In this document: piece by piece, positions 33,629 through 61,152 of the stretch | Layout of the letters: each line of letters opens with the position of its first letter | Position numbering within the stretch: the stretch's first letter is position 1 | IMG/VR virus record: IMGVR_UViG_2833778570_000001 | Coordinates: 1 to 64,000 of that record | Strand: one strand, 5' to 3' | Length of the DNA stretch: 64,000 nt | Origin: a virus | Lineage: Duplodnaviria > Caudoviricetes | Made by a program: the position numbers and the translations under genes | Notes under the pieces: generated by a model | Told to the model about the DNA's origin: nothing | Database searches by the model: none | What the model saw: only the letters and a program-made list of their open reading frames with translations

Positions 33629-34687
33629 TCAGTCCACCACCGTCGGGTCCGCCTTCTTCACGTTGTGGCTGAGGAGGCCGTCGGAGACGTAGGTGTGCGC
33701 GCCGGCCACGGTGAGGCGCACCACGGGCCCGTGCTCGCCCCGCGTCACCTGGCGCACCACGCCCGGCCGCGTGCCCACCAGCCGCACGCCGGCCGAGAGG
33801 TGGCGCAGCTCCATCCAGGCGTCCTCCGTCCGCACGCGGTGGTTGCCGGTGGCCTCCAGGCGCCGACCGTCCTCCAGCTCCAGCAACCACCGCACGCCTT
33901 CGGCGGGCTCCGCAGCGGTGACGAGGAAGTCTCCCCACTCCAGCGTCTCCTCGTCCTGGGTGCGCACCAGCATGCCCACCTGGACTTCGCCCGCGGGCAC
34001 CTCGCGCCCGTCCGCCAGGAGAATCGGCACCCACGGCGCGGGGCACGTGCCGCCGCCCGCTGGGGTTCCGCCGGGCCCCGTCTGCCCGCTGCCACCACTG
34101 CCCCCGAAGCCGCCGTCGGACCACTCAGTGACGAAGCCGGCGGAGACGACGCAGCTGCCCACTTCCATCTCTCCGTAGCAGATGGGCACCGGGTGGCCCT
34201 GGGCGAGCGTGTTGACGGGGCCATTGAAGACGTAGCTGGGCTTGTTGGCGTCGTCCTCGTCGGGCCCGGTGGCGGTGGGCGGGGCGAAGAGGAGCTGCGA
34301 GACGCCGCCCACCACCAGGGAAATGCCCGCGGTGATGAGGGGCACGCCCGCGCCGTACCCGTAGACGGTGAGGACGGCGCCGGCGGCGATGAGCACCGCG
34401 CCCGCTACCACCTGGAACCAGCCGGACTTCGCCCCGGCCAGGGCCGGCATGAAGGTGAGGACACGCGCGCCGGTGGGCATGCCCAGGTCGTCCTCACCGA
34501 CGTCCCGCTTGCCCGCGAAGACGTGGTAGCCGGGCTCGCTGTTCTCGGCCAGGTAGCGGCGGAAGCCGTCGCAGACGGCGGAGAGGGCCCGCACCGCCTC
34601 CGCAGGCGAGGGCACGGAGAGGTCCAGCTTCCACACGCGCCCGAAGCGCTTCCCCAGGGGCCCGCCCAGGACGATGGTCGTCAGCAT
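33629..34687 (-). CDS. Tail assembly protein I (lambda gpI-like) fused to a C-terminal Hint domain
   Basis: TIVLGGPLGKRFGR, SPAEAVRAL, GAKSG, FNGPVNT...PICYGE; then Hint. Confidence 0.9.
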   Translation of the reverse strand: MLTTIVLGGPLGKRFGRVWKLDLSVPSPAEAVRALSAVCDGFRRYLAENSEPGYHVFAGKRDVGEDDLGMPTGARVLTFMPALAGAKSGWFQVVAGAVLIAAGAVLTVYGYGAGVPLITAGISLVVGGVSQLLFAPPTATGPDEDDANKPSYVFNGPVNTLAQGHPVPICYGEMEVGSCVVSAGFVTEWSDGGFGGSGGSGQTGPGGTPAGGGTCPAPWVPILLADGREVPAGEVQVGMLVRTQDEETLEWGDFLVTAAEPAEGVRWLLELEDGRRLEATGNHRVRTEDAWMELRHLSAGVRLVGTRPGVVRQVTRGEHGPVVRLTVAGAHTYVSDGLLSHNVKKADPTVVD

Positions 34688-35412
34688 CGGGAAGCGTGCC
34701 TCACGACGCGTTGGGTGATGCGCTCCCAGAAGCCGGAGTACGTCTCCCGGCCGGACAGGCGCCCCATGACGTGGTGCAGGAGGACGTCCCCGCCCAGGTA
34801 CACGCCTGCGTGGTTGGGCACCGGGGCGCGCAGTTGCATGAGGAGGACGTCGTGCTCGCGCGGGGCTTTGCCCGTCACGTCCACGAAGCCCGCGCGGCCG
34901 AAGCCCTCCAGGTAGAGGTTGCCGCCCTTCGCCCACCAGTCGTCCGGGCGCTCGAAGTCGGGCAGCGCCAGGCCCAGGCGCTCCCAGTAGTAGTCCTGGA
35001 TGAGGGAGTAGCAGTCGAGGACGCCATGGCTGAAGGTGCGGCCCACCAGCGGCGGGCGGTAGCCGTCCGGGAAGTAGAGGCGCCAGTGCCCCACCGGGAC
35101 GTTGAGGATGAGCCAGGGCAGGCCCCAGCGCTCCATCATCACCCTGTCGGCCTCACTCGGTTCCGGCGCGGCGTTGGGGTGGGAGTGCACCACCGCCACC
35201 ACCTCGCCCTCCCCTTCTGCCTGAGCGTAGTCCTCCGGAGCTAGGACGAAGTGCGCCTGGCCGGCGGCGAGGTTCCGGCAGGGGCGGTACCGCTGGGCGC
35301 CGTCCACCAGCACCACGAGGCCGCAGGACTCGCGGGGGTAATCGGCCTGGGCGTGGGTGAGCGCGGCGCTCAGGACGTCATCAGCCAGCGTCAGCCGGCA
35401 GGGGTCGCTCAT
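34681..35412 (-). CDS. Tail assembly protein K (JAB + NlpC/P60)
   Basis: YPRESCG, HSHP...PSEAD, DCYSL, NHAGVY. Confidence 0.92.
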   Translation of the reverse strand: MSDPCRLTLADDVLSAALTHAQADYPRESCGLVVLVDGAQRYRPCRNLAAGQAHFVLAPEDYAQAEGEGEVVAVVHSHPNAAPEPSEADRVMMERWGLPWLILNVPVGHWRLYFPDGYRPPLVGRTFSHGVLDCYSLIQDYYWERLGLALPDFERPDDWWAKGGNLYLEGFGRAGFVDVTGKAPREHDVLLMQLRAPVPNHAGVYLGGDVLLHHVMGRLSGRETYSGFWERITQRVVRHASRC

Positions 35413-35545
35413 GCAGACATCGTGGCCACGAGCGTGGACGGCATCCATCTCAGACCGGACACAGAGGGGCTGTTCGGCCTGCATTCGGAAGCACCTAAAT
35501 CCGCCCAAATTGAGGCCACGGTCCTAACGGCGCTACATTCCAACA

Positions 35546-36500: not shown

Positions 36501-37763
36501 CTGAGCCATCCCCTCATATGAAACCGAGCGCTTCTTTGAAGACAGGGTGCTGATGGAGGAGTTCGGCGAAGCGCTCGACGAGAGGCCGCAATCGCTCCTC
36601 CTTCATCATGGGAATGGCTTGGTAATACATGCAGCCCTGCCGGAAGAGCGAGTAGGTGCGTGTCTTGACGGTATTGGCCTTCAAGCCCTTCTCCATCCCG
36701 AGACTCTCCCCCGCGGCGCCCAGCAGCGTCAGCAGCACCTGGGCCAGGGCGCTCACCAGCAGCAGCCTGTCTCTGCGCTCGGGACTCTTCACGCGCACCG
36801 TGGACAGTCCCATCCCGAATCTCAAGTCCTTGACGTCCCGGAACGTCTCCTCGCACGAGAAACGCCGGGCGTAGAGGTCCACCACCTGGCGCGCGCTGGC
36901 GGCTCCCAGGCTGGTGGCCAGACACCACGGCTCCTTCATGCCCTTCTGGCGCACCAGCACCACCGCGGGCACCGGCGTGCGGTCCGCCGTCACGTGCACG
37001 TCCGTCAGCTTCTTGGCGTGCCCGCTGGTGGGAATCCACCTGGCCGCGGGACACCCGGTGCCGCCGGCCACCTCCACCCGCACGTCCTTGCGAAAGCGCA
37101 CCACGTACTCGAAGCCCGCCTGGGCCAAAAGGGCGTACAACCGCTGGTCCGCGAAGCCCCGGTCCGCCAGCACCGTCACCTTCACCCCTTCGGGCACGCA
37201 CTCCTTGAGCCGCAGCAGCAGCTCATCCTCCGCCTGGGCGCGGTTGCCCGCCAGCGCGCTCTTCTGCAGCGTCAGCCACAGCAGGGGCGTGGTGCGTCCA
37301 TGCGAGGTGACGAGGCTGGCCACCAGGGTGGTGTGGTCATCGGCCTCGAAGTCCGTCCAGTCCAGCGCCACCAGCGCTTCGGTGCGCTCGGCCAGCACGT
37401 ACGGCACCCACGAGGCCGCCAGCTTCCACACGTCCACCGCCTCGTTGGACAGCAGTCGGTCCACCTGCTTGATGCCGTGCTTCTCACGCCGCCTCGCGCC
37501 CACGCCAGCGCCTGGCCAATGGCGTGCACCGACAGCGACGCGGCGTGCACCACCCCCAACGTCGCGTGCGCCAGCGACAGCACCCTCTTGGCGTGCAGGT
37601 CCTCCTCGAACAAGCTCTCCAGGAACCTCAGCACCTGCTCTTCGTTGATGGCCACCTTGCGTCCCAGCATGGCCTCTCTTCCTGCTCCCCACCACTCCGC
37701 CTCGCACGGGCCTGGCAGGCAGGCGGCTGGCGATCAGCTTGCCGAAATGAGGGGATCTCTCAG
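36501..37763 (-). mobile_element. IS4-family insertion sequence (1263 bp)
   Basis: 17-bp TIRs CTGAG(CC/AG)ATCCCCTCAT; 9-bp target duplication AGCTCGTAC at 36492 and 37764. Confidence 0.92.
36514..37670 (-). pseudogene. IS4 DDE transposase with a 1-nt frameshift near 37490
   Basis: N-terminal part MLGRKV...WARGG and main part EKHGIKQVD...ALDWTD...LADRGF...YARRFSCEETFRDVK are in different frames. Confidence 0.85.
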
Positions 37764-38962
37764 AGCTCGTACAGCAGGGTGTCGAGCAGTGCGATCCGAC
37801 ATCTCCAGACCCGCGCCTCAACCGGCACCAGTGGACGTGAAGCGGCAAACCAGGGAAAGGACCAAAGGGTGTCGAGGAACTTGACGTAGGTGGTCGCGCT
37901 GGTCGGGACAGTTCCGAAGACCTGCCAGAGACGCCTTCGGTTGGCGTTGTTGACCGAGAGGAAGACGTCCGGCCGTTTCATGGCGAGAAGGCGGGTGGCA
38001 GCTCCCAACCCAACACCCCTCAGAGCAAGAACTCCGTCGAGGTAGGCCTCAACCACGTCGTGCGACACACGCCCCCTGACTGGAACAGCATCCAAGAAGC
38101 GCCCCAACTGCTTGGGAGAGTCGGTGGTGAGCTGCTTGAAGTAGCCCGCCCCTTGCATTCGCCCAAAGTAGCCGGTGGTGTCCCGCCCCCATCCAGCCAC
38201 CAGCTTGCGCTCATCTTCTGGCATTGAAGCGAACGCTGGCCAACGATGGAACGCTTCCCGACAGGCTTCGGCCTCCCCTAGATAAGAGCCGTCCGGGTGA
38301 TCGAAAACGCGAATCTCAAAACCGTTAGCCAGAGCCCGCCTCTCCTGACGAGCGATGAGGGCATAATATCCCGCCCAGTCGCAACTTAGGTCTCCCAGGC
38401 ACACTGCGGCGTTAGCAGGCAAAGGCTGGGGCGCCTTCTTTATTGGAGGCTTAGGCCTGCTTTCATACAATTCATGATATGCGGCCAACCATGCCGCGCT
38501 TGGCGTGAATGCACGCGGGTCGTGCCAAGCTGCATCCACAAACGAAAGCAGGGTGCCCGCAGCATTGCACTGAGCATCTCCCTCAAAAAGGACGTTCAGT
38601 TCCGTGTTCCCATGAAAGCCTCCCCGGGTGAAGTTCGAAGATCCCCAGAGAGCACGCACCTGCCCTCCGCGTCGTCCGACAAGCAACTTCGGATGGAAGA
38701 CACCAGAGGTGTCCTCAATGACACGAAGGACTTTAGCATTGCCAAGTTCGACCAGAACCTGGGGCTCGGTCTGAGCGAAGTGGATCCCGATAACGGCCCG
38801 GCGGACACGCTCAAGGGGTAGGCACTTCCAATGCTCTGCTGTTCCTCCAGCCGAGCTAGCCCACGCGTAAACCAAGTCAATATCCGAGGCCCAAGCCACA
38901 AGCCTGCGAAGCGCATCCATCGTATCTGCTGTAGATGCCAAGACCGTGAAATTCTCTGCCAT
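37760..38962 (-). CDS. Phospholipase D (HKD) family nuclease, NgoFVII/BfiI-like
   Basis: FHPKLLV...WGSSNFTRGG...NTELN, long C-terminal domain; lower GC. Confidence 0.8.
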   Translation of the reverse strand: MAENFTVLASTADTMDALRRLVAWASDIDLVYAWASSAGGTAEHWKCLPLERVRRAVIGIHFAQTEPQVLVELGNAKVLRVIEDTSGVFHPKLLVGRRGGQVRALWGSSNFTRGGFHGNTELNVLFEGDAQCNAAGTLLSFVDAAWHDPRAFTPSAAWLAAYHELYESRPKPPIKKAPQPLPANAAVCLGDLSCDWAGYYALIARQERRALANGFEIRVFDHPDGSYLGEAEACREAFHRWPAFASMPEDERKLVAGWGRDTTGYFGRMQGAGYFKQLTTDSPKQLGRFLDAVPVRGRVSHDVVEAYLDGVLALRGVGLGAATRLLAMKRPDVFLSVNNANRRRLWQVFGTVPTSATTYVKFLDTLWSFPWFAASRPLVPVEARVWRCRIALLDTLLYEL

Positions 38963-39218
38963 ACAATTGGCCTCCAGGCCAAAGAGCGTCGCAGAAAATG
39001 AGACATCCAACCCAGATGCCCCACCGCGTCTACCGCCGTTGCGTCACCAATGCCGACCAAATGACCATTATGCTGTTGGGAAAAATAGCAGTGCTCCCAG
39101 AGCCCCAGAACTGTGTGGACATGACTTTGGCGGCTCACACCATAGGTCATATTATCCAGAGAGGTACCGGTCTACTTCAACGACCGACCAGTAGACTTCC
39201 GCGAAGAAGAAGTCGCTC

Positions 39219-40127
39219 TCAGATGACCTCAAACGCAGGTTCTGCGTTCTCTGTGACACGAGTCGCCAGCACGCTTTTCCGCCGCAAGGGGTCCGCCTTC
39301 GACCGGTCCTTCGCGCTCTTCTGGACGAGGTCGGCGCGGTGAATCACCTCGCTCGCCTGAGCCTTCACATCCTTCACGGCCACGAGGCCACACGAGGATG
39401 ACAGGTGACGAGGTTCCCCTTTCACTTTGACCGTTTCCCCTGAGAGCGATGCCAGCGCTGCACCCATGCGCCTCTGAGCCTGTTCCAGTGGCGTTGCTGG
39501 CATAACAACGACGACCTCGTCACCGCCCTTCCGGTAGGCGTCCCCAACATCGGACACGGCCTTCTCGATGGCATGGAAGAAGGCCTTGATGGCTTCGTCC
39601 CCCGTTGCATGGTCGCCGTCTTCGTTGAACGCCTTGAGCCCGTTCATGTCGAGGTAGGCCACCGACACCGGCGACTCCTCCTGGATGTTCATGATGGCAA
39701 TCGCCAAGTCGCGCTCCGCATGGCGACCGTCATAAAGGATTCCAAACGGTTCATGCAGACGAGTGGAACGAAGCTGGTCCTGCAGCTCCGCCAACCGGAG
39801 ACGGCCCAAGTGCCCCAGTTCCAACTCTACACTCTGGCCATCTAGGAGCCTTGAGACAAACTCCGCGCGACCGAGTCGCTCCCTCCGCTCAAGTTCCTCT
39901 GCAACCGCGTCGAGGCCGCCACTGCCTGGCACGTAAAGGCTCTTCCTGATGTCGGGGCCATTGATCATCCCCCTAAAGAAGAGGGAGAGGACCATCTGTA
40001 CTTCCTTTGCAGCCTCGAATGATCCCCCTCCCCCTCTCGGGAATTGCCTACTGACCCACCGAGTCTGCTCGAACCGGGCAAGAAATTGTAATTCCAGGAA
40101 GCGAGCATCATTTTTGTACTCTGCCAT
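39219..40127 (-). CDS. GGDEF-domain diguanylate cyclase-like protein
   Basis: YLDMNGLKAFNE...HATGDEAI...YRKGGDEV...SCGL...ADL. Confidence 0.85.
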   Translation of the reverse strand: MAEYKNDARFLELQFLARFEQTRWVSRQFPRGGGGSFEAAKEVQMVLSLFFRGMINGPDIRKSLYVPGSGGLDAVAEELERRERLGRAEFVSRLLDGQSVELELGHLGRLRLAELQDQLRSTRLHEPFGILYDGRHAERDLAIAIMNIQEESPVSVAYLDMNGLKAFNEDGDHATGDEAIKAFFHAIEKAVSDVGDAYRKGGDEVVVVMPATPLEQAQRRMGAALASLSGETVKVKGEPRHLSSSCGLVAVKDVKAQASEVIHRADLVQKSAKDRSKADPLRRKSVLATRVTENAEPAFEVI

Positions 40128-56873: not shown

Positions 56874-57037
56874 CGGGCACCACCCTGGCGTGCATCCGCG
56901 CCCAGCTCGATGAAGGCCCGCCGGGCCGTCCAGTCGTGCAGCGCGTCTCCCCATGCCTCGGGGAGCACCTCCATGAGAGGGTGGGCGACGACGTTGTGCA
57001 CGAAGCGCCAGAGGCGGGCGCGCAGGGCCGGCGTCAT
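56870..57037 (-). CDS. 55-aa His-rich hypothetical protein
   Basis: ATGA overlaps on both sides; HNVVAHPL...LHDWT. Confidence 0.65.
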   Translation of the reverse strand: MTPALRARLWRFVHNVVAHPLMEVLPEAWGDALHDWTARRAFIELGADARQGGAR

Positions 57038-58509
57038 GCAGCCCTCCCGCCGACGGGCAGCTGCTGGCCCTGCGGCACTTGGCCACCCGCTGCCGGCGCC
57101 GTGCGCAGGCTGCCCAGCGCGGGACCCTCGCTCGCAAGGCGCTCCCCGTCCACCTCCACGTCGAAGTCGGCCATGAGGACACCGCGGCGCTTGAGCTCCG
57201 CCAGGAAGGCGTCGCGGGAAATCTCCCGGGCCGCCCGCGCCTTGAAGAGGACGTCCAGGCCCTGCGCGTCGGACTCGGAGATGCCGAAGTCGGTGTGCAC
57301 CTCCACCTTCAGCTTCGCGTCCTCCACCTCCAGCCCCAGCCACCGGGCCGCGAAGTAGAAGGCCAGCTCCAGCGCGTCGCTGAAGGACTCCGCCATGGCC
57401 TGCAGCTCGGAGTGGGCCTGGGCGGTGTTGATGGACTTTTCGGTGGCCGTGGGAGTGCCGGAGCGCCGGACGAGGAGCTCCACGCCCAGCATGGCCATCT
57501 CGTCCTTCAGGTCCTCCAGGTCCTGCCGGCCAGCCGTGATGGCCGCGCCGGTGTGCTCCACGTAGTAGAACTTCCCCTGCGGACTGCTTGTGGTGAGGAG
57601 CGCGTGGGGCCCCACCGTCACCTTCCCCGAGCCTCGCCCCTCCCCTTCCCCGCGGTCCTGCTCCAGCCCCGAGGCCGCCAGCATGGGGAAGCGCGCCACG
57701 GTGAGGACGTTCCGCTGGTCGCTGGCGGACTGCCAGTGCTCCACGTTCTTGTCCGCCAGGTCCATCAGTGGAGGCTTCGCGGCGCACAGGGCCGTGCGCT
57801 CCCCGGCGTACCAGGTGACGAGGGGGATGAAGCCCAGCGTGTTGGGGCCGCTCGCTGCCTGCTTCCACTCGCTGGTGCCGCTGCGCTCGTAGACGGCCCA
57901 GGTGTCGCGCTCGAGGACGCGCACCCGCTCCACCTGCACCTCTTCGAAGCCGTCCCGGCGCGTCTCGCATTCGCGGATGCGCACGTGGGTGAGCACCTCC
58001 ACCCCGCCCACCGTTTCCGCATACGCGGCGATGAGGGACTCGGCGGAGACGTGCACGAAGTACGGGCGGAGGCCGGCGCGCTGCTCGTCCTCCAGCGTCC
58101 GCACCGTCTCCGGATCCACCACCGGGAAGTCCACGAGGATGTGGGCGAGGCCCTTGGACAGGCCATCCCGGAAGACGCCGCGGGCCCAGGCGGTGATGTC
58201 GCTGCCCTGCCTGTCCACGTCGTCCACCAGGACACGCAGCGGCTCGGGCGCGGAGTCGCCCAGGCGCACGGGCTTGGCGAAGGGCTTCGCGGCGAGGTTG
58301 CGCACCGTCTTGCCGAAGACGTTGAGGAGGACGGCGCGCGCCAGGCGCTCCTTGTACGCGTCCTCCTCCTCCGCGTGGTAGCGCGGCAGGTAGGTGCGGC
58401 CAGCGGCGCGCATGGTGCTGGTGCCGCCCAGGAGGGCCAGGACGAGGGCCCACGCGGGCTGCATGGCCCGGTAGGCGCTGCTGGGGGTGCTGACGTCGGC
58501 GGCACTCAT
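57034..58509 (-). CDS. Portal protein (DUF4055-like)
   Basis: YLPR...EE.D.Y..RL.RA, RPYFVH, IPLV, PPL.DLA.KN..HWQ. Confidence 0.9.
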   Translation of the reverse strand: MSAADVSTPSSAYRAMQPAWALVLALLGGTSTMRAAGRTYLPRYHAEEEDAYKERLARAVLLNVFGKTVRNLAAKPFAKPVRLGDSAPEPLRVLVDDVDRQGSDITAWARGVFRDGLSKGLAHILVDFPVVDPETVRTLEDEQRAGLRPYFVHVSAESLIAAYAETVGGVEVLTHVRIRECETRRDGFEEVQVERVRVLERDTWAVYERSGTSEWKQAASGPNTLGFIPLVTWYAGERTALCAAKPPLMDLADKNVEHWQSASDQRNVLTVARFPMLAASGLEQDRGEGEGRGSGKVTVGPHALLTTSSPQGKFYYVEHTGAAITAGRQDLEDLKDEMAMLGVELLVRRSGTPTATEKSINTAQAHSELQAMAESFSDALELAFYFAARWLGLEVEDAKLKVEVHTDFGISESDAQGLDVLFKARAAREISRDAFLAELKRRGVLMADFDVEVDGERLASEGPALGSLRTAPAAGGQVPQGQQLPVGGRAA

Positions 58510-59000
58510 TCCGCAGGCTCCATGCGGCGGATGGCCGCCTCACCGCGCACCGCGGTGAAGACGCTCGCCACCACGTGGCCCTGCATGGCGGACGGGCCGG
58601 AGAGCAGCAGGTGCAGCACCTCCGGCCGCTCGGCGTTGAGGGTTTCGCGGACGGAGGCCTCGTCGGTGCGCGACAGCCGGGCAGGCCCGCCCGGGTGGGT
58701 GTGCCAGTCGCCCAGGTAGCGCAGGCGCGGGCGCAATCGTTCGAGGAGGCGGTTGTCGTGGAGGCGATCCGCGTCGTAGCCCACGCGTCCGCGCATGGCA
58801 TTCCGCCCGGGGCCGGTGATGGCGAGTACGTGGGCCTCGCCGTCCACCACGGCGCCCAGCAGCAGGCCGCCCGTCTCCAGCGGGGCGCGCACCCGCGCCA
58901 GGCGCAGGGCCTTGGCCAGGACGCCGGGCGCCAAGCGCACGCGGTACCCGTCCGAGACGTAGAGGGCCGGCGCGGACGCAGTCGGCAGGGGGCAGGCCAT
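58506..59000 (-). CDS. Stand-alone JAB/MPN (Mov34) metalloprotease
   Basis: ETGGLLLG, ITGPG, YLGDWHTHP...LSRTD. Confidence 0.88.
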   Translation of the reverse strand: MACPLPTASAPALYVSDGYRVRLAPGVLAKALRLARVRAPLETGGLLLGAVVDGEAHVLAITGPGRNAMRGRVGYDADRLHDNRLLERLRPRLRYLGDWHTHPGGPARLSRTDEASVRETLNAERPEVLHLLLSGPSAMQGHVVASVFTAVRGEAAIRRMEPAE

Positions 59001-60556
59001 CACCGGTAGCTCCTCACCTGGAAGGTGGCCGTGCCCTCGCCGAGCATCAGCTCCGTCAGCGCCCACACCACCGCGTCCATGCGGTTGGGGCTCCAGTCCG
59101 ACTCACCCGGCACCCACGTCGTCTGCTCGTCCTCCAGGGCAGCGAGGCGCACCACGTGGTGTGCCATCCCGCGCTCGTAAAGGGCGGCCACCGGTGCCGC
59201 GCGCTTCGCCTTGCCGCGCGTGGCCGTCACCACCTTCACGGTGACGTGCTTCTTCATCTCGCGCGCCTTGGTGCGGACGTTCGTCTCCACCATGTCGCCG
59301 CCATAGTTCTTCTCGCCCACGACGGCGTCCGCGCGCTCCTTCTCGTAGAGGGCCAACGCCTTCGCCGCCCAGCCCTCCGCGGAGTACTTCCCCGAAGCAT
59401 CCAGCCACACGTAGGCGTGGCCGTTGCTGGCCTTGCCGGCGCAGACGATGCCCACCTCGTCGTTGTCGGGCCCGTCGCCACCGGCCGGATCCACCGCCAC
59501 CACCACGCGCACCATGGGCAACGGCTTGCCCTCGGCGTCCTTCGGGAGCTCGGCGCGGCTGTTGTCCAGCAGCTCCTGAGTCCACAGCGCGCCCACCGCC
59601 GCGGCCTTGAAAGCCTCCTCCACCGTCGCCGGGTACTCGCGGCGGAAGTCGTGGATGCCCTTCTCGTAGACGGAAATCTTCGCCCGGCGCCAGGCGAGCT
59701 GCGCGTCGGCCAGCTCGAAGCCGTGCGCCTCGCGGCAGAGGGCGGCGTACCGTTCCTCCTCGCTGGTGCGCTCGAAGCCCGGCGGCACCTCGCGCCGGTA
59801 TTCCTCCTGCCAGAACCACGGGACGAAGATGAGCTCGAAGTCGTTCTCCCCCTTCTGCGCCGCCATGCACAGGTGGTGGAAGAGGCCCTGGGGCCCGTCG
59901 CTGGTGCTCTCCAGAATGACTTCGGTGCCCGGCGCCGTGGGCACGCCCTCCATGACGCCGCGCATGTGCGTCGCGGCGTTCGGCCAGAAGGCCACCTCAC
60001 TGCCGTGGAAGTACTGGATGGTGGAGGAGCGGCCCGTCCCCTTCGCGCCCGCGGTGCCCACTTTGTAGCCGGAGGACAGCTTGTCGAAGAGGAGCTCCTT
60101 CGCGTTGGAGGCGCTCGTCGAGGGCTTCACCAGGGCCGGGACATGGTCGTGGTACCGCTTCGCCATGTCGAAGAGGTTCACCGTCGCCGCGTCCTCGTGC
60201 GTGAGGATATAGGCGCGCACGCCCTTCAGGTGGCTCACCTTCCAGTAGAAGCGCGCTTCCACGTACGTGCTGCAGCCCTGCTGGCGCCCCTTCAGGACGA
60301 TGGCGCGCACGAAGCCCCGGCGCTTCAGCTGCGCCTCCAGCCGCTCGTGGATGTACAACTGCGCGCGGTTGAGCTTCAGCGCCGGCAGCTCCCCGCCCGT
60401 CACCTCCTTCGGGCGGATGCGCAGGCACCGCGAGGCGTAGTGCGGGAAGTCGTCCTTCAGGCGCTGGCGGATCCGCTTCTCGCGCGGGGAGAGAGGCTTG
60501 CGGCGCGCCCCTTGGTGGGGCGGCTCGGCCGCACGGCAACGGGCGCGGGCGCTCAT
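59000..60556 (-). CDS. terL: Terminase large subunit
   Basis: LKGRQQGCST Walker A, HGSEVAFW, ILEST, RuvC-like VAVDP...DEVG...DAVVW. Confidence 0.95.
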   Translation of the reverse strand: MSARARCRAAEPPHQGARRKPLSPREKRIRQRLKDDFPHYASRCLRIRPKEVTGGELPALKLNRAQLYIHERLEAQLKRRGFVRAIVLKGRQQGCSTYVEARFYWKVSHLKGVRAYILTHEDAATVNLFDMAKRYHDHVPALVKPSTSASNAKELLFDKLSSGYKVGTAGAKGTGRSSTIQYFHGSEVAFWPNAATHMRGVMEGVPTAPGTEVILESTSDGPQGLFHHLCMAAQKGENDFELIFVPWFWQEEYRREVPPGFERTSEEERYAALCREAHGFELADAQLAWRRAKISVYEKGIHDFRREYPATVEEAFKAAAVGALWTQELLDNSRAELPKDAEGKPLPMVRVVVAVDPAGGDGPDNDEVGIVCAGKASNGHAYVWLDASGKYSAEGWAAKALALYEKERADAVVGEKNYGGDMVETNVRTKAREMKKHVTVKVVTATRGKAKRAAPVAALYERGMAHHVVRLAALEDEQTTWVPGESDWSPNRMDAVVWALTELMLGEGTATFQVRSYR

Positions 60557-61152
60557 TCCAGCTCCCCCAGCGCGTCCTCGTGGCTGAACTGGACGGTGGT
60601 TTCCACCTTGTCGACGAAGAGGCGCAGGTGCTTGCCCAGCAGCTCCAGCGACTTCGGCTTGTCCCACAGCTTCACCTTGGCCACGGTGCCGATGGCCTCT
60701 CCGTCCACGGTGAGCTGCTCCACCTCGATGGAGGAGATGGCCCGGCGCAGGTGGGCCGGCATCTCCTTCAGCGGCAGCAGGGCCCCCGTGGGGCTGAAGG
60801 CGTCGCCGATGTCCGTCCGGGCGATGAGGAGCAGCTCGCGCAGGACGTCGTCCGCCTTCACCTCGACGCGCTCGGCCCGGGCGGCCTTCGCGGCATCTAC
60901 CGCCGCCCGGACCTTGGGATTGCTTAGCAGCTTCGAGGCCGTCACCTCCGCGGACCGCTCGGAGTAGCCAGCGCGGATGGCGGCCTGCTTCCCGTTGAGG
61001 TCGACCAAGTACTCCTGGACGAAGCGCTCCTGGTTCGCCGTCAGCGCCTGGGCGCGCGACTCACCCGCCGGCGTCTTCCGGCTGCGGCGCGTGCTGAGCT
61101 TGCGAGGAGGCGTCCTACCCACGCCGCCGAGTCTCCGGTGTCGCGTGGACAA
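60553..61152 (-). CDS. terS: Terminase small subunit
   Basis: LTANQERFVQEYLVDLNGKQAAIRAGYS, KVKLWDK..SLELLGKHL; start approximate. Confidence 0.92.
   Translation of the reverse strand: MSTRHRRLGGVGRTPPRKLSTRRSRKTPAGESRAQALTANQERFVQEYLVDLNGKQAAIRAGYSERSAEVTASKLLSNPKVRAAVDAAKAARAERVEVKADDVLRELLLIARTDIGDAFSPTGALLPLKEMPAHLRRAISSIEVEQLTVDGEAIGTVAKVKLWDKPKSLELLGKHLRLFVDKVETTVQFSHEDALGELE

What the first reader, a model, noticed from the sequence alone, without database searches (positions are those of the whole stretch)
58506..59000. Stand-alone JAB deubiquitinase-like gene wedged between terminase and portal
Seen: intact JAMM motif (E...WHTHP...S..D), translationally coupled on both sides (TGATG, ATGA) in a position that normally holds no gene. 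It is additional to the gpK JAB. Established: prokaryotic JAB proteins of this type (CBASS Cap3, Bil-system DUB) cleave ubiquitin-like conjugates, and Bil defence conjugates a Ubl to the phage central tail fibre. Inference: a late-expressed counter-defence deconjugase, or a partner of the gpI/fibre Hint chemistry.
Basis: partly seen in the sequence, partly recalled or inferred. Interest (0 to 1): 0.78.

Follow-up and report, generated by a model that had tools for sequence, protein, structure and literature searches.

The report
Orphan Cap3-like isopeptidase in prophage
A myxobacterial prophage carries, between its DNA-packaging and portal genes, an optional lone copy of the zinc isopeptidase that bacteria use to reverse ubiquitin-like tagging in anti-phage immunity; the phage probably uses it to blunt that immunity, but this is untested.

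Summary
Window 58506-59000 (minus strand) encodes a 164-aa JAB/JAMM protein with E42, H100xH102, S110 and D113 intact. It overlaps the TerL stop (TGATG) and the portal start (ATGA), and it is separate from the gpK JAB-NlpC/P60 tail protein.

It is a diverged member of the Cap3-like branch. The best solved match is the Cap3:CD-NTase complex 9ild. Of the nearest homologues outside the prophage clade, 62 of 76 lie directly downstream of a ThiF-type E1 gene (28 also carry an E2 domain). The 78-kb provirus has no E1 or CD-NTase.

Orthologues (58-93% identity) form one clade in Corallococcus and Myxococcus prophages. A portal-anchored survey shows the slot is optional cargo: 7 of 9 prophages carry the JAB, one has TerL abutting portal directly, and one carries an unrelated gene. 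That argues against a core assembly role. One JAB-less prophage keeps both Hint-capped tail proteins, which argues against a Hint partnership.

Cap2-like genes occur in 5 of 21 Corallococcus and 6 of 32 Myxococcus species genomes.

Best reading (about 0.5): a late-expressed deconjugase that counters Cap2-type or other Ubl-type defence.

The scan reported the same gene earlier in sister prophages. I found no paper describing a phage-encoded Cap3.

The parts
58506..59000 (-). Stand-alone Cap3-like JAB/JAMM isopeptidase gene (164 aa, stop included)
   Evidence: Translation. Pfam Prok-JAB 3.5e-13. PADLOC CBASS JAB 1.4e-16. AF2 model pLDDT 89.8. Best PDB match 9ild Cap3.
58662..58703 (-). Codons for H100-T-H102 ... 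S110 ... D113, the zinc-binding and catalytic core of the JAMM motif
   Evidence: Read. Invariant in alignment A2.
58875..58877 (-). Codon for the catalytic glutamate E42 (PLETGG)
58998..59002 (-). TGATG overlap: TerL stop and JAB start share one base
59010..59015 (-). GAGGAG Shine-Dalgarno motif inside the last TerL codons, 9 nt before the JAB ATG
   Evidence: reverse complement of ctcctc.
58506..58509 (-). ATGA overlap: portal start and JAB stop
59000..60667 (-). Large terminase subunit, upstream neighbour
   Evidence: Terminase_6C and phrog_979/38/2.
57034..58509 (-). Portal protein, downstream neighbour
   Evidence: DUF4055 1.6e-40 and phrog_145 1.9e-134.
34681..35508 (-). gpK-type tail protein (JAB plus NlpC/P60), the other, unrelated JAB of the prophage
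   Evidence: Branch length 10 from the Cap3-like set in the tree.

Best explanation
The gene encodes a catalytically intact, single-domain JAMM zinc isopeptidase of the Cap3-like branch. In bacteria this is the enzyme that reverses conjugation made by Cap2-type E1-E2 proteins. A family of lambda-like Corallococcus and Myxococcus prophages carries it as optional cargo, inserted exactly at the TerL-stop/portal-start junction. It is translated as an internal cistron of the late operon. The most likely function is counter-defence. During virion production it would hydrolyse the isopeptide bonds by which a host Cap2-type enzyme conjugates its CD-NTase, or another ubiquitin-like C-terminus, to targets. 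That would return type II CBASS-like (or related Ubl-conjugating) immunity to its unprimed, weak state, copying the host's own negative regulator. Shown here: the gene, motif, fold, family affinity, lack of any E1/E2 partner, optional-slot behaviour, purifying selection, and presence of Cap2-type systems in the host genera. Inferred: enzymatic activity, the substrate, and the effect on defence.
For: (1) The JAMM residues are intact and invariant in 19 orthologues, and dN/dS is 0.18-0.48, like TerL and portal. (2) The family affinity is Cap3-like. PADLOC CBASS JAB models score 1.4e-16. The best NCBIfam hits are TIGR02256/VC0181, the 6A-MBL cap2_3 JAB part and Cap3 NF050170. Foldseek's top hit is 9ild_A, the Cap3:CD-NTase complex (TM 0.79/0.85). 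VIA gives Z 19.6, rmsd 2.1 over 145 residues. (3) Of the nearest homologues outside the prophage clade, 62 of 76 lie directly downstream of a ThiF-type E1 gene, and 28 of those also show Prok-E2_B. All five non-prophage homologues found in Myxococcaceae genomes also lie beside ThiF ORFs of 557-812 aa. (4) The phage copy is an orphan: no ThiF or SMODS match anywhere in the 78-kb provirus. (5) It is dispensable cargo. Among 9 portal-anchored prophages, 7 carry it, one has the TerL TGA followed at once by the portal GTG, and one holds an unrelated ORF. (6) Potential targets exist in the host clade. Full-length Cap2-like genes are in 5 of 21 Corallococcus and 6 of 32 Myxococcus species genomes. 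The host of a sister prophage has a complete CapV-CD-NTase-Cap2-Cap3 operon, and its cyclase ends in Ala. (7) Cap3-like orphans sit in the head modules of unrelated phages. (8) Published work shows that Cap2 conjugation boosts CBASS and that Cap3 reverses it (PMC10097602, PMC11153139).
Against: No activity or phenotype data exist. Scores are far below the curated Cap3 and TIGR02256 cut-offs (35.5 vs 200 bits; 50.3 vs 127.6). The protein is only about 25% identical to the one myxobacterial Cap3 examined and lies in a different subclade, so the substrate match is unknown. The fold match to Cap3 is statistically tied with an archaeal Rpn11 homologue (Z 18.9). A CD-NTase next to the nearest E1-JAB pairs was confirmed for only 6 loci by a local profile. 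Pfam SMODS matched in only 4 of the 30 genomes searched, and none of the matches could be placed beside the JAB locus, so these relatives may belong to E1-E2/JAB systems other than classical CBASS. Late expression may come too late to stop a pre-primed system. JAB presence shows no visible link with host Cap2 in the few lysogens examined. In 7 of 13 JAB-found prophages an HslV-like peptidase follows the JAB, which hints at another kind of function.
Confidence: 0.5

Rival explanations
1. Head-morphogenesis or processing protease. The JAB, alone or with the HslV-like Ntn peptidase that follows it in sister prophages, trims or matures a head, portal or scaffold protein.
For: It sits inside the head module and is translationally coupled to TerL and portal. 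An HslV-family peptidase (phrog_1040, 7.3e-21) follows it in 7 of 13 JAB-found prophages. In unrelated phages Cap3-like JABs lie next to prohead protease genes (L016, L021).
Against: Close relatives do without it. L157 has TerL abutting portal, and L155 carries an unrelated ORF instead, with the same portal, MuF and scaffold set. The window has the JAB without HslV. No PHROG and no isolated phage matches it. BFVD phage JABs match only weakly, TM 0.6 or less. The HslV-like gene lies among small accessory genes in the two isolated phages inspected.
Confidence: 0.13
2. Partner of the tail Ubl/Hint chemistry. The JAB edits products of the Hint-capped gpI (ubiquitin-like) and tail-fibre proteins.
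For: The prophage has a Lambda_tail_I/phrog_32 gpI and a fibre with weak Hint matches. JAB enzymes act on Ubl C-termini.
Against: G118's prophage keeps the full-length gpI-Hint (residues 1-350, 72% identity) and a second Hint-capped protein but has no JAB. G140 carries the JAB, yet only the gpI match passed the threshold and no second Hint-capped protein was found. The tail module already has its own gpK JAB. The stand-alone JAB travels with the portal even where TerL is swapped, and it is not tied to the tail genes.
Confidence: 0.05
3. An accessory isopeptidase with a different target. Examples are host proteostasis or sulfur-carrier-type Ubl adducts, competition with other mobile elements, or benefit to the lysogen by damping auto-activation of a resident E1-E2 system at induction.
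For: The slot behaves as a cargo island with varied content. The systems of the nearest E1-JAB relatives are not confirmed as classical CBASS, and two of them have CapW/BrxR-like WYL regulators. One lysogen keeps both a type II CBASS and a JAB-bearing prophage.
Against: No promoter-like or terminator-like site lies on the coding strand around it, so expression from the repressed prophage is unlikely (a weak test). Family affinity points to Cap2-made conjugates.
Confidence: 0.2
4. A decaying or functionless hitch-hiker gene.
For: It is lost in 2 of 9 related prophages.
Against: All catalytic residues are invariant in 19 orthologues down to 58% identity. dN/dS is comparable to essential genes. 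Translational coupling is preserved.
Confidence: 0.04

Closest known systems
Cap3, the JAB isopeptidase of type II CBASS (V. cholerae VC0181 / TIGR02256; NF050170; PDB 9ild Cap3:CD-NTase)
   Same: Same size (about 160 aa), a single MPN+ domain, a full JAMM motif, the best sequence-profile and structural match, and nearest relatives that sit beside Cap2-type E1-E2 genes.
   Different: There is no Cap2, CD-NTase or effector in the element. It sits between TerL and portal in a prophage late operon. Scores are well below the curated equivalog cut-offs. It forms a separate monophyletic prophage clade.
BilC, the JAB deubiquitinase of Bil systems, which conjugate a Ubl to the central tail fibre (10.1101/2023.09.04.556158)
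   Same: It is a stand-alone JAB acting on Ubl conjugates. This phage has a lambda-type gpJ central fibre (phrog_31), the published Bil target, and that paper speculates that phage DUB domains could counter Bil.
   Different: No Ubl/E1/E2 operon is present. Sequence relatedness to BilC was not tested because no BilC profile or sequence was to hand. The paper's speculation concerns DUB domains within tail-assembly proteins, not a head-module gene.
Lambda gpK-type tail protein (JAB plus NlpC/P60)
   Same: It is a phage-encoded JAMM domain, and one is present in the same prophage (34681-35508).
   Different: gpK is a fused two-domain tail-tip protein. It is very distant in the tree (branch length 10), and gpK-type hits in BFVD reach only TM about 0.5.
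Minimal archaeal JAMM deubiquitinases (Caldiarchaeum Rpn11 homologue 6fno; Pyrococcus JAMM1 5ld9)
   Same: The fold match is statistically tied with Cap3 (Z 18.9 and 16.1). They have the same minimal catalytic core.
   Different: Sequence profiles favour the bacterial Cap3-like group. No Ubl/SAMP partner is encoded here.
Known anti-CBASS proteins (Acb1 nuclease; Acb2 and Vs.4 cyclic-nucleotide sponges)
   Same: They share the proposed purpose: a phage protein that lowers CBASS signalling (PMC10097602; 10.1101/2022.03.30.486325).
   Different: Those act on the second messenger. This protein would act upstream, by undoing the cyclase-priming conjugation. No such phage enzyme was found in the literature searched.
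Phage proteasome homologues (PPH/AAH, PMC8665760; phrog_1040)
   Same: The gene that follows the JAB in sister prophages belongs to this catalogued phage-borne HslV-like group.
   Different: It is absent from this window. It travels independently of the JAB, and its function is unknown.

Membership tests
JAMM/MPN+ metalloproteases (Pfam Prok-JAB PF14464) | E ... HxH-x7-S-xx-D zinc and catalytic motif | tested here: met
   E42, H100, H102, S110 and D113 are present and invariant.
JAMM/MPN+ metalloproteases (Pfam Prok-JAB PF14464) | Profile score above the gathering cut-off | tested here: met
   49.9 bits against 25; 50.1 bits in the six-frame search.
JAMM/MPN+ metalloproteases (Pfam Prok-JAB PF14464) | MPN fold | tested here: met
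   AF2 pLDDT 89.8; Z 15-19.6 to many solved JAMM enzymes.
CBASS Cap3 (NF050170; TIGR02256) | Score above the curated equivalog cut-off | tested here: not met
   NF050170 scores 35.5 bits against 200. TIGR02256 scores 50.3 against 127.6.
CBASS Cap3 (NF050170; TIGR02256) | Operon with a Cap2 E1-E2 and a CD-NTase | tested here: not met
   The flanks are TerL and portal. There is no ThiF or SMODS match in the 78-kb provirus.
CBASS Cap3 (NF050170; TIGR02256) | Structure closest to solved Cap3 | tested here: inconclusive
   9ild_A ranks first in Foldseek and VIA, but it is within 1 Z unit of an archaeal Rpn11 homologue.
CBASS Cap3 (NF050170; TIGR02256) | Cleaves the CD-NTase C-terminus from its conjugates | not testable with these tools
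   This needs biochemistry.
Bil-system DUB (BilC) | Encoded with a Ubl, an E1 and an E2 | tested here: not met
   No ThiF match in the provirus, and the neighbours are virion genes.
Bil-system DUB (BilC) | Sequence or phylogenetic grouping with BilC | not tested
Lambda gpK tail JAB | JAB fused to NlpC/P60, located in the tail-tip module | tested here: not met
   This is a single domain of 164 aa in the head module. The true gpK lies at 34681-35508 and is distant in the tree.
Actinophage head-module stand-alone JAB (Patience 'protease' type) | Close structural or sequence similarity and a fixed place in the head module | tested here: inconclusive
   BFVD matches to these proteins reach TM 0.45-0.52. 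There is no tblastn match in 50,697 phage records. The slot is optional here.

The most novel reading that the evidence does not exclude
Orphan Cap3-like isopeptidases are a recurrent and so far undescribed class of enzymatic counter-defence. Unrelated phages would have independently captured the host's own 'off switch' for E1-E2 (Cap2-type or Ubl) immunity and placed it in their late head-gene operons. There it would strip cyclase or Ubl conjugates while virions are being built.
Probability: 0.4. Interest if true: 0.75.

Novelty: new variant of a known kind. Interest (0 to 1): 0.6.

Why it matters
The known phage answers to CBASS destroy or sequester the cyclic-nucleotide signal. A phage-borne Cap3 mimic would be the first counter-measure aimed at the ubiquitin-like priming step. 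It would parallel the deubiquitinases and deISGylases of eukaryotic viruses. It would also give a natural tool for finding what Cap2-type enzymes conjugate in vivo. The family is small and soluble, and it comes from culturable non-pathogenic hosts, so the idea is directly testable.

Tried and rejected
- **Isolated phages.** tblastn of the JAB, and of two other phage-module JABs, against 50,697 isolated phage records found nothing.
- **PHROGs.** No family matched.
- **Viral-contig scans.** The pattern-based scans added only three new distant loci. The portal scan recovered only contigs already known to carry the JAB, plus relatives at 40% identity or less.
- **CD-NTase detection.** A local iterative CD-NTase profile started from one sequence reached only 6 loci. 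Pfam SMODS matched in 4 of the 30 genomes searched, and none of the matches could be placed beside the JAB locus. The system type of most nearest E1-JAB relatives therefore remains unconfirmed.
- **PDB look-ups of flanking genes.** These gave CapW/BrxR-type regulators for two loci, a transposase for one, and nothing for two others.
- **Rejected: Hint-partner reading.** See the G118 counter-example.
- **Rejected: core morphogenetic gene.** The slot is empty in one relative and holds a different gene in another.
- **Rejected: recent capture of the resident host Cap3.** The two are about 25% identical and fall in different clades.
- **Promoter and terminator scan.** Nothing was found on the coding strand. 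This is a weak test for a myxobacterial phage.

Full report
**The element.** The window is part of a 78-kb IMG/VR provirus with a CheckV completeness estimate of 91%. It is 68% G+C. Named close relatives come from Corallococcus and Myxococcus.

The late genes run on the minus strand:
- TerS at 60553-61152
- TerL at 59000-60667
- the JAB gene at 58506-59000
- portal at 57034-58509
- a Mu-F-like head protein, a scaffold and the major capsid protein
- a lambda-type tail: tape measure, gpM, gpL, gpK (JAB plus NlpC/P60), gpI and gpJ

**The observation.** The ORF gives 164 residues with the full JAMM signature: E42, H100-x-H102, S110 and D113. The TerL stop and the JAB start share a base (TGATG). 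The JAB stop and the portal start overlap (ATGA). A GAGGAG motif lies 9 nt upstream of the ATG. Pfam Prok-JAB is clearly met. The provirus holds exactly two Prok-JAB domains, this one and gpK.

**Which JAB it is.**
- No PHROG matches, and no isolated phage genome encodes a relative.
- The best profiles are the CBASS JAB (Cap3) models of PADLOC, down to 1.4e-16.
- In NCBIfam the best hits are TIGR02256 (the VC0181 family), the JAB part of the 6A-MBL Cap2_3 fusion, and Cap3 NF050170. All are far below their curated cut-offs.
- An AlphaFold2 model built on 26 homologues is confident, with pLDDT 89.8.
- Its best solved match is the Cap3:CD-NTase complex 9ild by Foldseek (TM 0.79/0.85) and by VIA-align (Z 19.6, rmsd 2.1 Å, 145 residues). 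An archaeal Rpn11 homologue is within one Z unit, so the fold alone does not discriminate.
- Viral structure matches, gpK-like and actinophage JABs, are weak.

**Relatives and their contexts.** Proteins of 58-93% identity occur only in Corallococcus and Myxococcus. Every locus fetched lies in the same prophage family, in the order TerL-JAB-(other genes)-portal. This holds even in three prophages whose TerL has been replaced by a different 462-aa terminase.

The next-nearest homologues, at 48% identity or less, are cellular. Of 76 examined, 62 lie immediately downstream of a ThiF-type E1 gene, usually 560-640 aa, and 28 of those also have a detectable Prok-E2_B domain. All five non-prophage homologues found in a sample of 101 Myxococcaceae genomes likewise sit beside ThiF ORFs.

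In a maximum-likelihood tree the 13 prophage JABs form one clade (SH-aLRT 96) inside this Cap3-like radiation. They are far from the window's own gpK JAB. They are also not sister to the Cap3 of a myxobacterial CBASS operon.

The provirus has no E1 and no SMODS cyclase. The gene is therefore an orphan of an E1-E2/JAB system.

**Core gene or cargo.** I anchored a survey on the portal rather than on the JAB. It found nine prophages in 53 Corallococcus and Myxococcus species genomes.
- Seven carry the JAB.
- In one (G118) the TerL TGA is followed directly by the portal GTG.
- In one (G116) an unrelated ORF of roughly 280 aa, with no Pfam match, fills the slot.

Among the JAB-bearing prophages the slot holds one of four arrangements:
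- the JAB alone, as in this window
- the JAB plus a 178-aa HslV-family peptidase (phrog_1040)
- the JAB plus an Arg-rich ORF of 70-80 aa
- all three

The junction is therefore a cargo site, and the JAB is not needed to build this virion type. Isolated phages with the same portal family carry a hypothetical gene, a polynucleotide kinase/phosphatase and a DNA ligase upstream of the portal. The gene is still under purifying selection, with dN/dS of 0.18-0.48, like TerL and portal, and with invariant catalytic residues.

**The Hint hypothesis.** G118's JAB-less prophage still encodes the full-length Hint-capped gpI (72% identity over residues 1-350) and a second Hint-capped tail protein. The stand-alone JAB is therefore not tied to the Hint fusions.

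**Potential targets in the host clade.** Full-length Cap2-like E1-E2 genes occur in 5 of 21 Corallococcus and 6 of 32 Myxococcus species genomes. C. carmarthensis CA043D hosts a sister prophage whose JAB is 93% identical. It carries a complete phospholipase-cyclase-Cap2-Cap3 operon on a low-GC island. Its cyclase ends in Ala, as reported for Cap2-dependent cyclases (PMC10097602).

**Recurrence elsewhere.** Cap3-like orphans also sit in the head modules of unrelated phages:
- a Mu-like contig, L016: TerL-portal-F-G-JAB-protease-capsid
- L019: JAB-TerL-portal
- L021/L022: portal-phrog_528-JAB-protease-capsid

In the tree these do not group with the myxobacterial clade. The deep branches are poorly resolved, so separate captures are suggested but not shown.

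**Mechanism.** Published work shows that Cap2 conjugation of the cyclase raises CBASS output and that Cap3 reverses it (PMC10097602, PMC11153139, PMC10419184). A phage that expresses a Cap3-like enzyme with its late genes would be expected to de-prime such a system. The Bil paper speculates that phage DUB domains could counter Ubl conjugation to the central tail fibre (10.1101/2023.09.04.556158), and this phage has a lambda-type gpJ. I therefore favour a counter-defence deconjugase, at about 0.5.

**Caveats.**
- Activity and substrate are unknown.
- The family scores are sub-threshold.
- The systems of the nearest relatives are only partly identified. CapW/BrxR-type regulators flank two of them. 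A CD-NTase was confirmed near only a few.
- I saw no link between JAB carriage and host Cap2 in the handful of lysogens examined.
- The HslV-like neighbour in sister prophages leaves room for a proteolytic or processing role.

**Novelty.** Four literature searches found no description of a phage-encoded Cap3-like enzyme. Other agents of this scan reached the same reading on sister prophages. My calls reproduce their main points independently. They add the portal-anchored evidence for an optional slot, the Hint counter-example, and the frequency of Cap2 in the host genera.

Noticed in passing
L002:6492-7028 (also L004, L005, L006, L007, L009, L010, L160-L162): A 178-aa HslV-family Ntn peptidase (phrog_1040, 7.3e-21; starts V-TCIAG, consistent with a Thr1 nucleophile) directly follows the JAB in many sister prophages but is absent from this window. 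Relatives occur in 210 isolated phage records. In the two records inspected they lie among small accessory genes.
   Followed up: partly
L011:6489-6701; L007:4371-4613: A conserved Arg-rich ORF of 70-80 aa lies immediately upstream of the portal in 8 of the 13 JAB-found prophages and in 5 of the 9 portal-anchored prophages. It has high GC3 and no Pfam, PHROG or PADLOC match. It is absent from this window.
   Followed up: partly
L155:~660-1504: In one Corallococcus prophage the TerL-portal slot holds an unrelated ORF of roughly 280 aa with no Pfam match, in place of the JAB.
   Followed up: partly
L016:5953-6468; L019:2680-3162; L021:5938-6405: Cap3-like stand-alone JAB genes are embedded in the head modules of unrelated phages: one Mu-like, one directly upstream of TerL, and one between portal and protease. 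None has a match in isolated phage genomes.
   Followed up: partly
L008, L011, L012 (TerL at L011:4604-5992): The terminase module is swapped. A different 462-aa TerL (Terminase_6N/6C) replaces the window-type TerL, while JAB and portal stay linked.
   Followed up: partly
L116:4808-9196 (C. carmarthensis CA043D, contig with a low-GC island): A complete type II CBASS operon: patatin-like phospholipase effector, CD-NTase ending in Ala, Cap2 E1-E2 and Cap3. It is in the genome that hosts a sister prophage.
   Followed up: yes
L030:3116-3997; L038:3003-3947: At these two of the nearest cellular E1-E2/JAB pairs, a CapW/BrxR-type WYL regulator is transcribed divergently just upstream. Several other pairs have a gene of similar size and orientation that was not examined. 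No SMODS-type cyclase could be placed beside them, so they may represent a Cap2-Cap3 module variant.
   Followed up: partly
window 36514-40127: A GGDEF cyclase, a PLD-like protein and a DDE transposase are inserted between gpL and gpK inside the tail operon.
   Followed up: no
L140 and L141 (Xanthomonas phage Xoo-sp2; Stenotrophomonas phage AXL_1): Isolated phages with the same portal family (about 50% identity) carry a hypothetical gene, a 3'-phosphatase/5'-polynucleotide kinase and a DNA ligase upstream of the portal.
   Followed up: partly
L163 (provirus 64001-78238): The part of the provirus beyond the window encodes a Ser/Thr protein kinase (low GC3), a UvrD-like helicase, an SNF2 helicase, a C5 DNA methylase-like protein and DUF5131.
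   Followed up: no
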